Virus record (IMG/VR): IMGVR_UViG_2740892369_000024
Coordinates: 1 to 12,663 of that record
From: a virus
Lineage: Duplodnaviria; Heunggongvirae; Uroviricota; Caudoviricetes
DNA length: 12,663 bases
Direction: 5' to 3' (one strand)
The notes under the pieces are model-generated. The model did no database searches and was not told where the DNA came from. It saw nothing but the letters and a program-made list of their open reading frames with translations. Made by a program: the position numbers and the translations under genes. Shown here piece after piece: positions 347 to 1,174 of the stretch. Every line of letters begins with the position of its first letter. Position 1 is the first letter of the stretch.

Positions 347-360
347 GTAACAATAGTTAC
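347..360. promoter_or_regulatory. Candidate operator OL1: palindrome GTAAC-N4-GTTAC in the divergent promoter region
   Basis: Perfect 5-bp inverted arms GTAAC (347-351) and GTTAC (356-360) separated by AATA. The same motif recurs at 395-408 and 1158-1171. A minus-strand TTGACA (complement of 369-374) lies nearby as a possible -35 for the Cro-like gene. Confidence 0.45.
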
Positions 361-394
361 ATAACAATGTCAACCATAGCAACATCACTTGGTA

Positions 395-408
395 GTAACA
401 TTGGTTAC
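395..408. promoter_or_regulatory. Candidate operator OL2: palindrome GTAAC-N4-GTTAC immediately upstream of the repressor start
   Basis: GTAAC (395-399), ATTG, GTTAC (404-408), ending 1 nt before the ATG at 409. The centre is 48 bp from the 347-360 copy. Confidence 0.45.
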
Positions 409-1083
409 ATGAAAAACACTATCAGCGAACGTATTCGGAATCGTCGAAAAGACGTTGGATTAACCCAACAGCAGGTTGCGAAAGCAATCGGCATATCTCG
501 TGTATCCGTAACAAAATGGGAAAATGGCTCTTCAAAACCTGACGGTGAGAATTTGTATCTACTGTCAAAATTGCTTTCCAAATCTCCTGAATGGATTCTT
601 TATGGAAAGGACGGTCACGATAAAACCGATGATCTGCGTCTGAATCAGTACCCTTACATTAGTGACAACATCGCCCGGTTGCCCGTTTTAACGTGGGAAC
701 AGGCTGGTTATTGGGATATGAGTTGTCCAGTAACCAAGATTCCTGGTATTAAGAACTGGGTTGATGTCATGACAAAAACCGCTGAAAACTCTTTTTTATT
801 GCATGTTGAGGGAGATGCGATGACAAACTCTAACGGCCTCCCAACCATCCCCGACGGATCTACCGTGCTGATCACACCATGCTCAAGTAACATTAGAGAA
901 CTGGTGGGAAAAATAATCTTAATCCAATTGGAAGGAACGCCAAACGTAACACTAAAAAAAGTTGCGATTGACGGACCAAACATCTATCTGTTGTCACTGA
1001 ATCCGCTTTACAAACCCATCGAACTGAATGGTGGTTACACCATTAAAGGTAAAGTTTCACAAATACATCAATACTTAGACTGA
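409..1083 (+). CDS. dicA: Prophage repressor: DicA-like N-terminal HTH_XRE domain fused to a LexA/CI-like (peptidase S24-type) C-terminal domain, 224 aa
   Basis: N-terminus MKNTISERIRNRRKDVGLTQQQVAKAIGISRVSVTKWENGSSKPDGENLYLLSKLLSKSPEWILYG follows the pattern I recall for DicA and is a classic XRE helix-turn-helix. The C-terminal region FLLHVEGDAMTNS...VTLKKVAIDG...GKV aligns by eye to lambda CI (VEGNSM...FTFKKL). Start chosen at ATG 409; ATG 367 is an alternative, and the track's TTG 310 start would overlap the divergent gene. Stop TGA at 1081-1083. Confidence 0.85.
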   Translation: MKNTISERIRNRRKDVGLTQQQVAKAIGISRVSVTKWENGSSKPDGENLYLLSKLLSKSPEWILYGKDGHDKTDDLRLNQYPYISDNIARLPVLTWEQAGYWDMSCPVTKIPGIKNWVDVMTKTAENSFLLHVEGDAMTNSNGLPTIPDGSTVLITPCSSNIRELVGKIILIQLEGTPNVTLKKVAIDGPNIYLLSLNPLYKPIELNGGYTIKGKVSQIHQYLD

Positions 1084-1088
1084 GTCAG

Positions 1089-1114
1089 AACCCGCATTCA
1101 TTGCGGGTTTTTTA
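1089..1114 (+). terminator. Rho-independent terminator after the repressor gene
   Basis: Stem AACCCGCA (1089-1096) / TGCGGGTT (1102-1109) with loop TTCAT, followed by a T-run through 1113. Confidence 0.7.
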
Positions 1115-1145
1115 TGCCCTCAAATGTACCTTTTGCAACATTGTA

Positions 1146-1174
1146 TTGACTCGAAAGGTAACTCTTGTTACCTT
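1146..1174 (+). promoter_or_regulatory. Candidate dicB-operon promoter with an embedded operator (GGTAAC-N4-GTTACC)
   Basis: TTGACT at 1146-1151, a 17-bp spacer and TACCTT at 1169-1174 as a weak -10. The 16-bp palindrome GGTAAC-TCTT-GTTACC (1157-1172) fills the spacer and carries the same half-sites as the two copies in the immunity intergenic region. Confidence 0.45.

What the first reader, a model, noticed from the sequence alone, without database searches (positions are those of the whole stretch)
347..1172. Three copies of a GTAAC-N4-GTTAC palindrome mark a two-promoter repressor regulon
The same inverted-repeat motif occurs twice in the 91-bp divergent region between the Cro-like and DicA-like genes (347-360, 395-408) and once more inside the spacer of a TTGACT-17-TACCTT promoter candidate upstream of ydfA (1157-1172). 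That arrangement is what one expects if a single repressor autoregulates the immunity region and occludes the dicB-operon promoter. The third site is the longer, perfect 16-bp version.
Basis: seen in the sequence. Interest (0 to 1): 0.5.

Follow-up and report, generated by a model that had tools for sequence, protein, structure and literature searches.

The report
Prophage repressor operators at three promoters
The three GTAAC-N4-GTTAC palindromes are real and are almost certainly the binding sites through which one prophage repressor silences both its rival cro gene and the dicB/dicF cell-division-inhibitor operon; this is the textbook lambdoid immunity layout with a binding-site sequence not found in the searched papers.

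Summary
GTAAC-N4-GTTAC occurs exactly three times in 12.6 kb, at 347-360, 395-408 and 1158-1171, against 0.01 expected by chance. The window is a Qin-like cryptic prophage of E. coli (O26:H11 and others); 702 of 5,426 complete genomes carry it.

- The sites lie in an exchangeable immunity cassette (about 112-1180): P22-type cro, OR, a repressor with an HTH and an S24 domain, a terminator, and a PL-like promoter (the counterpart of dicBp).
- In 9 of 10 other immunity types that share the ydfA operon, the palindrome in the dicBp spacer matches those in that locus's own cro/repressor intergenic region. K-12 Qin uses TTAGY-N4-RCTAA at the same three positions.
- Relatives of the repressor at 88%, 66%, 52% and 43% identity (the last is Pectobacterium phage ZF40) keep GTAAC-N4-GTTAC at the same positions while the flanks diverge.
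- Two weaker sites are likely: OR2 at 370-383 and OL2 at 1126-1139.
- Each promoter-embedded operator also supplies the extended -10 TG and the first three bases (TAC) of the -10.

This is a new member of a known kind, of low to moderate interest. One side finding: the repressor's catalytic serine is alanine, so it is probably not SOS-cleavable.

The parts
102..317 (-). cro-like gene (71 aa), the counterpart of dicC/cro
   Evidence: Pfam P22_Cro, E 2.9e-16. RefSeq calls it a Cro/CI family regulator. An AGGAGA Shine-Dalgarno on the minus strand lies just upstream of the ATG at 317.
344..349 (-). predicted PR -10 (TACCCT on the minus strand), preceded by an extended -10 TGT at 352-350
   Evidence: Read from the sequence. 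It lies 18 nt from the TTGACA at 373-368. The columns are conserved in relatives. This is an inference; no TSS data exist.
347..360 (.). OR1: GTAACAATAGTTAC, overlapping the spacer, extended -10 and -10 of PR
   Evidence: Exact match. Invariant in 19 loci of this immunity type. Perfect in three relatives (88-66% identity) and in ZF40 (central A to G only); one half-site mismatch in Hamiltonella.
368..373 (-). predicted PR -35 (TTGACA on the minus strand)
   Evidence: Sequence. The ATGTCAAC block is conserved in 5 of 6 relatives.
370..383 (.). candidate weak OR2: TCAACCATAGCAAC (6 of 10 half-site bases)
   Evidence: It lies 23 and 25 bp centre-to-centre from OR1 and OR3. Relatives have TCAAC-N4-GTTAC, GTAAC or GGTAC in the same register, and the terminal AC (382-383) is invariant in 6 of 6. 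On its own it is not statistically significant.
395..408 (.). OR3-like operator GTAACATTGGTTAC, abutting the repressor ATG; it contains a -10-like TAACAT at 396-401
   Evidence: Exact match. Invariant within the type. In relatives the half-sites are kept while the central 4 bp, and so the 'encoded' amino acids, change.
409..1083 (+). immunity repressor, 224 aa (RefSeq start 367, WP_000103687.1): P22 C2-like HTH domain plus an S24 domain with Ala137 (817-819, GCG) in place of the catalytic Ser
   Evidence: Pfam HTH_3 3.5e-17 and Peptidase_S24 9.7e-17. Alignment to lambda CI: GDAM against GNSM, with AG and KK kept. Matches P22 C2 N-terminal domain at E 1.3e-12. Codons checked.
1088..1113 (+). 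intrinsic terminator after the repressor gene
   Evidence: A 9-bp GC-rich stem followed by a T run. The centroid structure is -13 kcal/mol; the minimum-free-energy structure, which has 15 pairs in all, is -15.7 kcal/mol. z = -3.7, and 0 of 200 shuffles fold as well. Stem and T run are conserved in relatives.
1126..1139 (.). candidate weak OL2: GTACCTTTTGCAAC (7 of 10), 6 nt upstream of the -35
   Evidence: Relatives have GTAAC-N4-... at this place, and L091 has a perfect GTAACAATAGTTAC there. K-12 and other immunity types also carry a second operator upstream of the -35. A 3-mismatch match alone is not significant.
1146..1151 (+). -35 of the PL-like promoter (counterpart of dicBp): TTGACT
   Evidence: Sequence. 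TTGA is invariant in relatives. A -35-like hexamer sits at the same position in the other immunity types.
1157..1172 (.). OL1: GGTAACTCTTGTTACC (14-bp core at 1158-1171), in the spacer and -10 of the PL-like promoter
   Evidence: Exact match. Invariant in 19 loci. Kept in relatives. It lies at the right edge of the type-specific cassette.
1166..1174 (+). extended -10 TGT plus the -10 TACCTT of the PL-like promoter; predicted TSS near 1181
   Evidence: Sequence. TAC and TT are invariant in relatives. In the long-leader types inspected, a -10-like hexamer lies 5-6 nt upstream of the conserved leader's CAT. The TSS is inferred.
1356..1511 (+). ydfA (DUF1391), first gene of the repressed ydfABC-dicF-dicB-exonuclease-xis-int operon
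   Evidence: Pfam DUF1391, 2.4e-27. RefSeq annotation. DicF at 2593-2644.

Best explanation
The three palindromes are operators of a lambdoid (P22 C2/DicA-type) immunity module in a Qin-like cryptic prophage.

Binding. A dimer of the repressor encoded at 409-1083 binds each site through its helix-turn-helix domain. It reads two (A/G/T)GTAAC half-sites separated by four uncontacted base pairs.

Effects at each site.
- OR1 (347-360) covers the extended -10 and -10 of the leftward cro promoter and shuts off cro and the genes behind it.
- OR3 (395-408) abuts the repressor's own start codon and contains its likely -10. Occupancy there would limit the repressor's own synthesis.
- OL1 (1157-1172) fills the spacer and -10 of the PL-like promoter (TTGACT-17-TACCTT). 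It blocks RNA polymerase from transcribing ydfABC-dicF-dicB-exonuclease-xis-int.
- Weak sites OR2 (370-383) and OL2 (1126-1139) probably add cooperativity.
- The Cro-like protein presumably binds the same sites to flip the switch.

Shown versus inferred. Shown here: the existence of the sites, their non-random occurrence, their conservation, and their covariation with repressor type. Inferred: binding itself, the transcription start sites, and the sign of autoregulation.
For: 1. Three exact sites against 0.01 expected by chance. No others at one mismatch or fewer in 25.4 kb of the genomic locus.

2. Gene identities. P22_Cro for the cro-like gene; HTH_3 plus S24 for the repressor. The N-terminal domain matches P22 C2 (E 1.3e-12). 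The P22 C2 operator has two contacted halves around 4 uncontacted central bp (PMC4267663). That is the same 5-N4-5 geometry.

3. Natural swap experiment. The leader and ydfA operon are shared at 95-98% identity by many immunity types. The type-specific cassette runs from about 111 to 1178-1192, ending just after the -10.
- In 9 of 10 types, palindromes derived from the PL spacer find 1-3 matches in that locus's own OR.
- They find essentially none in the OR of other types. The exception is the mutually related TTAG-type DicA group.
- K-12 Qin has TTAGTCATAACTAA and TTAGCATTAGCTAA in OR and TTAGTCATGGCTAA in the dicBp spacer.

4. Phylogenetic footprint in relatives of this repressor at 88-43% identity (E. 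coli and other assemblies, Hamiltonella, Pectobacterium phage ZF40; the 70% Salmonella relative in the OR alignment only).
- 33 of 34 invariant non-coding OR columns fall in the predicted elements (p 2e-9).
- 30 of 32 invariant PL columns do the same (p 5e-7).
- L091 has four perfect sites, including a perfect OL2.

5. Within the type, none of 16 variable non-coding positions in 19 loci hits an operator, a -35 or a -10 (p 0.011).

6. In K-12, DicA represses dicBp 22-fold. It also binds Oc, represses dicC and activates dicA (PMC10448788, PMC3441716). This shows that the homologous layout works as proposed.
Against: - There is no binding, footprint or transcript evidence for this repressor or these sites.
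- Both proposed -10 hexamers (TACCTT, TACCCT) match the consensus at only 3 of 6 positions. The consensus scan called no promoter.
- OR2 and OL2 are weak matches. At three mismatches the window has 63 matches against 36 expected, so they rest on positional conservation only.
- In K-12, DicA bound only Oc, not Om or Oa, in an in-vivo assay (PMC3441716). A perfect palindrome next to the repressor ATG is therefore not guaranteed to be occupied.
- The geometry of the repressor's own promoter differs from lambda PRM: OR3 would cover -14 to -1. The sign of autoregulation is therefore uncertain.
Confidence: 0.85

Rival explanations
1. The palindromes are primarily Cro (lytic repressor) sites. The CI-like protein either acts elsewhere or is a non-functional remnant of a decaying prophage.
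For: The cro-like gene is intact and belongs to the P22_Cro family. The prophage is defective. The repressor carries an Ala at the catalytic Ser position.
Against: - In lambdoid switches CI and Cro share operators, so this explanation is not exclusive of the main one.
- The repressor ORF is intact in all 19 loci with few substitutions.
- Its HTH recognition helix (SRVSVTKWE) is invariant across relatives down to 44% identity.
- The Ser-to-Ala change affects self-cleavage, not DNA binding.
- dicB and dicF are toxic when expressed (PMC10448788), so a working repressor is under selection.
Confidence: 0.07
2. Sites 1 and 2 are true operators, but site 3 is only a carried-over sequence at the cassette edge. 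The real ydfA-operon promoter lies elsewhere, so there is no occlusion.
For: The -10 TACCTT is weak, and the consensus scan found no promoter. No TSS data exist for this allele.
Against: - A -35/-10 pair with a type-specific palindrome in its spacer sits at the same distance from the conserved leader in the other types examined, including K-12 dicBp.
- -35 TTGA, operator GTAAC, and -10 TAC and TT are invariant in relatives at 88-43% identity. This includes Hamiltonella and ZF40, where the downstream genes differ.
- An extended -10 TGn compensates for the weak hexamer.
- A terminator upstream means the operon needs its own promoter here.
Confidence: 0.05
3. The repeats are chance palindromes, or a by-product of coding constraint. 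Site 2 lies inside the RefSeq-annotated repressor ORF that starts at 367.
For: RefSeq annotates the ORF from 367, which places 395-408 in coding sequence.
Against: - Chance expectation is 0.01.
- In relatives the half-sites are kept while the 'encoded' residues change (NIGY, NVSY, NLNY). The 14-codon extension diverges faster than the protein body.
- Homologues align from Met409.
Confidence: 0.02

Closest known systems
DicA / DicC / dicBp immunity-like locus of cryptic prophage Qin, E. coli K-12 (Bejar et al. 1986, 1988; PMC3441716; PMC10448788)
   Same: - Same chromosomal prophage and flanking genes: relBE, hokD, rem, flxA on one side, and ydfABC-dicF-dicB on the other.
- Same layout: cro-type gene, divergent operators, repressor, then a promoter for ydfA-dicB with an operator in its spacer.
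- Same 5-N4-5 palindrome geometry at the same three positions.
- The operator nearest the repressor abuts its ATG, and there is no Shine-Dalgarno.
   Different: - Different repressor. The N-terminal domain is only about 36% identical. The C-terminal domain is an S24 (LexA/CI-type) fold rather than DicA's short tail.
- Different half-site: GTAAC against TTAGY.
- The cro-proximal operator sits in the spacer and -10 here. In K-12 it sits over the -10 and +1 of dicCp.
Phage P22 C2 repressor / Cro with OR and OL operators
   Same: - Homologous HTH domain (E 1.3e-12) and a P22_Cro-family partner.
- Full-length architecture of HTH plus S24 domain.
- Operators with two contacted halves and 4 uncontacted central bp (PMC4267663).
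- Operators at both PR/PRM and PL.
   Different: - Half-site sequence differs, so the module should be heteroimmune. The P22 half-site is recalled from memory and was not re-checked here.
- The catalytic Ser is Ala here.
- PL drives ydfABC-dicF-dicB rather than an N-type antiterminator gene.
Pectobacterium phage ZF40 cI/cro region (JQ177065, gp10/gp11)
   Same: The repressor is 43% identical. The operator and layout are the same: GTAACAATGGTTAC and GTAACGTTAGTTAC(ATG) 48 bp apart, and TTGACA-CAAAAG-GTAACAAGAGGTAC-ATT downstream of a terminator.
   Different: - A free-living inducible phage of another genus.
- The catalytic Ser is present (GESM).
- The downstream genes differ.
- I found no paper describing its operators.
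Phage lambda CI / Cro with tripartite OR and OL
   Same: - Gene order and logic: PL, repressor, PRM/OR/PR, cro.
- OR1-to-OR3 centre distance is 48 bp; lambda's is about 47 bp (recalled from memory).
- An S24 C-terminal domain aligns to lambda CI residues 24-226.
- The repressor start is probably leaderless.
   Different: - Unrelated operator sequence and length.
- The middle operator is weak.
- OR3 lies against the ATG, not around -20.
- The nucleophile Ser149 equivalent is Ala.

Membership tests
Lambdoid immunity region (CI/Cro switch with OR and OL) | Divergently transcribed repressor and cro genes | tested here: met
   P22_Cro at 102-317(-); HTH_3 plus S24 repressor at 409-1083(+).
Lambdoid immunity region (CI/Cro switch with OR and OL) | Several related palindromic operators between the two genes, overlapping the divergent promoters | tested here: met
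   Two perfect sites 48 bp apart plus a conserved weak middle site. OR1 overlaps the predicted PR -10, and OR3 overlaps the likely repressor -10. The promoters are predicted, not mapped.
Lambdoid immunity region (CI/Cro switch with OR and OL) | The same operator sequence at a second early promoter (PL) on the far side of the repressor gene | tested here: met
   GGTAACTCTTGTTACC lies in the TTGACT-17-TACCTT spacer. OR and PL operators covary in 9 of 10 immunity types.
Lambdoid immunity region (CI/Cro switch with OR and OL) | The module behaves as an exchangeable cassette bounded by OL and the end of cro (heteroimmune mosaics) | tested here: met
   Homology to other types stops at about 111 and resumes at 1178-1192.
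Lambdoid immunity region (CI/Cro switch with OR and OL) | Repressor binds the operators and represses PR and PL | not testable with these tools
   Needs EMSA, footprinting or reporter assays. Shown only for the K-12 homologue DicA (PMC3441716, PMC10448788).
LexA/lambda-CI self-cleaving (SOS-inducible) repressors | Ser-Lys catalytic dyad and Ala-Gly cleavage site in the S24 domain | tested here: not met
   Ala-Gly (EQAGYW) and Lys (TLKKV) are present. The nucleophile Ser is Ala137 (GDAM, GCG at 817-819), aligned to lambda CI Ser149. All 19 loci of this type have it.
P22 C2-type repressor/operator | HTH domain homologous to the P22 C2 N-terminal domain | tested here: met
   phmmer against 1adr, 2r1j and 3jxb: E 1.3e-12 to 1.6e-12 over residues 5-67.
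P22 C2-type repressor/operator | Operator with conserved outer halves and four variable, uncontacted central bp | tested here: met
   The halves GTAAC and GTTAC are invariant. The centres vary (AATA, ATTG, TCTT, and ATCG, GTTA, CTTA, AAGA in relatives). P22 geometry is taken from PMC4267663.
P22 C2-type repressor/operator | Same operator sequence as P22 (homoimmunity) | not tested
   The P22 half-site (TTAAG-type) is recalled from memory and differs from GTAAC. The repressor is under 60% identical to every phage repressor in the phage collection.
DicA regulon of Qin (K-12) | DicA protein and its TTAGY-N4-RCTAA operators | tested here: not met
   The repressor is 36% identical to DicA and only in the N-terminal domain. 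The operators differ. The layout and locus are the same.

The most novel reading that the evidence does not exclude
This immunity module may be a deliberately 'locked' switch.
- The repressor keeps a full S24 domain, the Ala-Gly site and the catalytic Lys, but has lost the nucleophile Ser by a single-base change (TCG to GCG).
- The same loss occurs in a 70%-identical Salmonella relative (GCA), while intervening relatives keep Ser. This suggests recurrent selection for SOS-blind repression.
- Domesticated Qin-like prophages would then keep dicB/dicF silent in about 13% of sequenced E. coli, and de-repress only through an antirepressor (Rem) or Cro bistability.
- Combined with operators that double as the extended -10 and -10, this would be a compact, portable, non-inducible repression cassette.
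Probability: 0.35. Interest if true: 0.45.

Novelty: new member of a known kind. Interest (0 to 1): 0.25.

Why it matters
- It pins down the likely operator code (GTAAC-N4-GTTAC) and promoter layout that keep the toxic dicB/dicF operon of a common STEC prophage silent. No phage in the reference collection carries a repressor more than 43% identical.
- The same comparative logic locates the DicA site at K-12 dicBp, whose position a recent survey listed as unknown.
- It corrects the annotated start of a widespread RefSeq protein.
- It flags a probably non-cleavable repressor allele.
- None of this changes the textbook picture of lambdoid immunity.

Tried and rejected
- Consensus promoter/terminator scan of 1-1500. 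It found no promoter and missed the terminator. Its thresholds exclude 3-of-6 -10 hexamers, so it says nothing about these sites.
- Raw best-14-mer identity matrix between PL cores and OR regions. It was too noisy in AT-rich DNA (diagonal 12.1 against off-diagonal 10.5). I replaced it with a palindrome-pattern matrix.
- Genome-contig scan with the single repressor protein. It returned only two irrelevant distant hits. Relatives came from the protein database and the contig look-up instead.
- Megablast against phages. It matched only the flanks, not the immunity module.
- Literature search for the exact operator strings and for ZF40 operators. Neither found anything.
- Bejar 1986 (PMC311701) is not held.
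- Rfam search and folding of the 175-nt ydfA leader, looking for a put-like antiterminator RNA. No family matched, and the fold z-score was +1.2.
- I considered a host transcription-factor site. I rejected it because the motif changes with the repressor type.
- The three-mismatch motif scan shows that weak matches are common. OR2 and OL2 cannot be claimed from the match alone.
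Full report
**1. Observation**

The motif GTAACNNNNGTTAC occurs exactly three times in the 12,663-bp window:
- 347-360, GTAACAATAGTTAC
- 395-408, GTAACATTGGTTAC
- 1158-1171, GTAACTCTTGTTAC

Dinucleotide-preserving shuffles give a mean of 0.01 matches, and none of 200 reaches three. Allowing one mismatch adds nothing in the window or in 25.4 kb of the source genome. The third site extends to a perfect 16-bp palindrome, GGTAACTCTTGTTACC, at 1157-1172. It lies between TTGACT (1146-1151) and TACCTT (1169-1174), which are 17 nt apart.

**2. Context**

Bases 1-1400 are 100% identical to a chromosomal region of E. 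coli 97-3250 and to many O26:H11 and other STEC genomes. Of 5,426 complete E. coli genomes, 702 carry at least 80% of it.

The annotated neighbourhood is as follows:
- on one side: cspB/F, ydfT, rem, hokD, relBE, flxA
- in the middle: YdaT, Cro, a LexA-family protein
- on the other side: ydfA, ydfB, ydfC, dicB, exonuclease, xis, int

This is the Qin cryptic prophage locus of K-12 with a different immunity region.

Pfam assigns the 71-aa minus-strand gene (102-317) to P22_Cro. It assigns the plus-strand gene to HTH_3 plus Peptidase_S24. DicF RNA is at 2593-2644. A strong hairpin followed by a T run at 1088-1113 follows the repressor gene. The ydfA operon therefore needs its own promoter.

**3. 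Start of the repressor gene**

RefSeq starts the repressor at 367, which would put site 2 inside coding sequence. Three lines of evidence favour ATG 409.
- DicA, P22 C2, mEp390 and other homologues align from ATG 409.
- The 14 extra codons are encoded by the PR -35 element (ATGTCAAC) and by the operator itself (S-N-I-G-Y).
- In relatives the palindrome halves are kept while those 'residues' change (NIGY, NVSY, NLNY). The rest of the extension diverges faster than the protein body.

**4. Test of 'one repressor, two promoter regions': a natural swap experiment**

I collected 80 viral contigs that encode YdfA. From about window position 1180 onward, the ydfA leader and operon are 95-98% identical across many loci. 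Everything upstream is type-specific: promoter, operators, repressor and cro. Homology to other types ends at about 111, the 3' end of cro. It resumes at 1178-1192, just after the proposed -10. All three palindromes therefore lie inside one exchangeable cassette, which is the classical definition of an immunity region.

For 10 distinct types I listed every 5-bp-half palindrome in the PL spacer and -10. I then counted matches with at most one mismatch in every type's cro/repressor intergenic region.
- 9 of 10 types hit their own OR, 8 of them at least twice.
- Cross-type hits are essentially absent, except among the mutually related TTAG-type DicA group.

Examples:

| Locus | OR operators | PL operators |
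|---|---|---|
| K-12 Qin | TTAGTCATAACTAA, TTAGCATTAGCTAA | TTAGTCATGGCTAA, in the TTGACC...TAATCT spacer |
| L035 | AATAGCATTGTTATT, AATAGCATCACTATT | AATAGCACTGCTATT, AATAGTAGTGGTATT |
| L032 | TTAGGCTTAGCCTAA and two more | TTAGGCATAGCCTAT, TTAGGCATTTCCTAT |

The operator at the ydfA-operon promoter therefore changes together with the repressor and its OR operators. That is what a shared repressor predicts.

**5. Phylogenetic footprint within this specificity**

A protein search found relatives at 89, 88, 70, 66 and 52% identity. I fetched their contigs, and also phages ZF40 (43%) and mEp390 (41%). Results:

- **L087/L088 (88%).** All three sites are kept although the flanks differ.
- **L091 (66%).** OR has two perfect sites 48 bp apart. 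PL has two perfect sites: GTAACAATAGTTAC upstream of the -35 and GTAACTATTGTTAC in the spacer.
- **Hamiltonella (52%).** The same layout, with 1-2 mismatches per site.
- **Phage ZF40 (43%).** GTAACAATGGTTAC and GTAACGTTAGTTAC(ATG) lie 48 bp apart, and PL reads TTGACA-CAAAAG-GTAACAAGAGGTAC-ATT.
- **mEp390 (41%).** The identical layout with a different half-site (GTAGG/CCTAC) and a different recognition helix.
- **Salmonella (70%).** It keeps the OR sites but has lost the ydfA operon, and with it the PL site.

In multiple alignments, invariant non-coding columns fall almost entirely in the predicted elements:
- 33 of 34 invariant OR columns (p 2e-9). The elements counted are the cro Shine-Dalgarno, PR -10 with OR1, PR -35 with OR2, and OR3.
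- 30 of 32 invariant PL columns (p 5e-7). The elements counted are the terminator, OL2, the -35, and OL1 with the -10.

I had written down OR2 and OL2 as candidates before fetching these relatives.

Within the window's own type, 19 loci show 16 variable non-coding positions. None lies in an operator, a -35 or a -10 (p 0.011).

**6. Promoter anatomy (inferred from sequence)**

- **PL-like promoter.** TTGACT (1146-1151), a 17-nt spacer ending in TGT (1166-1168, an extended -10), then TACCTT (1169-1174). In the long-leader types I inspected, a -10-like hexamer lies 5-6 nt upstream of the conserved leader's CAT. This places the start near 1181.
- **PR, on the minus strand.** TTGACA (373-368), an 18-nt spacer ending in TGT (352-350), then TACCCT (349-344). 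The start is near 336-338, and an AGGAGA Shine-Dalgarno precedes the cro ATG.
- **Shared feature.** In both promoters the operator's right half, GTTAC, supplies the G of the extended -10 and the TAC of the -10. A bound repressor must therefore exclude RNA polymerase.
- **OR3.** It contains TAACAT at 396-401, seven to eight bases before ATG 409, and there is no Shine-Dalgarno. K-12 dicA is similar (TAGCAT inside its ATG-proximal operator). This suggests a leaderless or near-leaderless repressor mRNA whose -10 lies inside OR3, which implies negative autoregulation at high occupancy.
- **Positive autoregulation.** It has been reported for DicA at Oc (PMC3441716). It cannot be assessed here.

The simple consensus scan found no promoter, because both -10 hexamers match only 3 of 6 positions.

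**7. The repressor**

- **DNA-binding domain.** Its N-terminal domain matches P22 C2 (E 1.3e-12). P22 repressor contacts bases 2-7 and 12-17 of an 18-bp operator and leaves the central four uncontacted (PMC4267663). That matches the invariant 5-bp halves and variable 4-bp centres seen here. The recognition-helix segment SRVSVTKWE is invariant in relatives down to 44% identity.
- **C-terminal domain.** It aligns to lambda CI with the Ala-Gly site (EQAGYW) and Lys (TLKKV) intact. The nucleophile Ser is Ala (GDAM against lambda GNSM).
- **Likely consequence.** From established knowledge of LexA S119A and lambda CI Ser149 mutants, this should abolish self-cleavage. This is my own knowledge, not tested here.
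- **Distribution of the change.** All 19 loci of this type have Ala. The 88% and 66% relatives, Hamiltonella, ZF40 and mEp390 have Ser (TCG or TCA). The 89% relative has Ala, and the 70% Salmonella relative has Ala (GCA). This suggests more than one loss.
- **Parallel with DicA.** DicA lacks the cleavage domain altogether and is not SOS-inducible; Rem is its antirepressor (PMC10448788). rem is present in this prophage too.

**8. Comparison with what is known, and novelty**

The layout is the textbook lambdoid immunity region. It is specifically the counterpart of DicA/DicC/dicBp, described from 1986-88 and revisited in 2012 and 2023 (PMC3441716, PMC10448788).

What is new is limited.
- **Operator sequence.** No paper in the searchable library contains these operator strings.
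- **Repressor.** No phage in the phage collection has a repressor more than 43% identical.
- **Shared specificity.** The operator is shared with phage ZF40 and a Hamiltonella prophage.
- **Operator and promoter overlap.** The operator doubles as part of the -10 region.
- **Annotation.** The annotated start is wrong.
- **Catalytic residue.** The repressor lacks its catalytic Ser.

A by-product concerns K-12. The covariation places the DicA site at dicBp on TTAGTCATGGCTAA (L002 3415-3428). The Reg-Seq survey listed that binding location as unknown (PMC7567609).

**9. Verdict**

Confidence is about 0.85 for the operator and regulon claim. It is lower for the transcription start sites, for autoregulation, and for the two weak sites. 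I classify the finding as a new member of a known kind, with interest of about 0.25.

Noticed in passing
window 817-819 (codon 137 of the repressor): The S24 domain has GDAM where LexA/CI-type repressors have G(D/E/N)SM. The catalytic Ser is Ala (GCG), while the Ala-Gly site and Lys are kept. All 19 loci of this type have Ala. Relatives at 88%, 66%, 52%, 43% and 41% identity have Ser (TCG or TCA). The 89% E. coli relative has Ala, and the 70% Salmonella relative has Ala (GCA). The protein is probably not SOS-cleavable, and the loss may be recurrent.
   Followed up: partly
window 367-408: The RefSeq start of the repressor (WP_000103687.1, 238 aa) adds 14 codons that are really the PR -35 element (ATGTCAAC) and operator OR3 (SNIGY). 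The same over-extension is annotated in phage ZF40 gp10 and in database homologues. The likely true start is ATG 409.
   Followed up: yes
L002 3415-3428 (E. coli K-12, between dicA and ydfA): TTAGTCATGGCTAA sits in the spacer of dicBp (TTGACC...TAATCT) and matches the DicA operators Oc and Oa. A weaker TTAGCTATAGCATA lies 35 bp upstream. A 2020 survey (PMC7567609) lists the DicA site at dicB as of unknown location.
   Followed up: partly
window 1181-1355: A 175-nt untranslated leader before ydfA is shared at 95-98% identity by at least 7 other immunity types. K-12-type loci share only its last ~40 nt (homology from 1318). There is no Rfam match, and its predicted fold is no better than shuffles (z +1.2). 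Its function, if any, is unknown.
   Followed up: partly
window 2593-2644: A DicF sRNA gene (Rfam RF00039, 76.7 bits) lies between the 124-aa ORF at 1912-2286 and dicB. It belongs to the operon governed by the operator at 1157-1172.
   Followed up: no
window 8689-8702: TTGACTCTTGTTAC shares 11 consecutive bases with OL1 but lies outside the prophage, in the effector region near espM2. This is probably chance.
   Followed up: no
L086 (phage mEp390) 518-600 and 1290-1345: mEp390 has exactly the same operator and promoter layout with a different half-site (GTAGG-N4-CCTAC; GTAAGATATCCTAC in a TTGACA...TACATT spacer). The architecture is therefore a property of this whole clade of C2-like repressors.
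   Followed up: partly
L089/L090 (Salmonella relative, repressor 70% identical): The OR operators are kept, but the ydfA operon and the PL operator are replaced by unrelated DNA encoding a 204-aa protein. The right-hand cassette boundary can therefore be lost.
   Followed up: no
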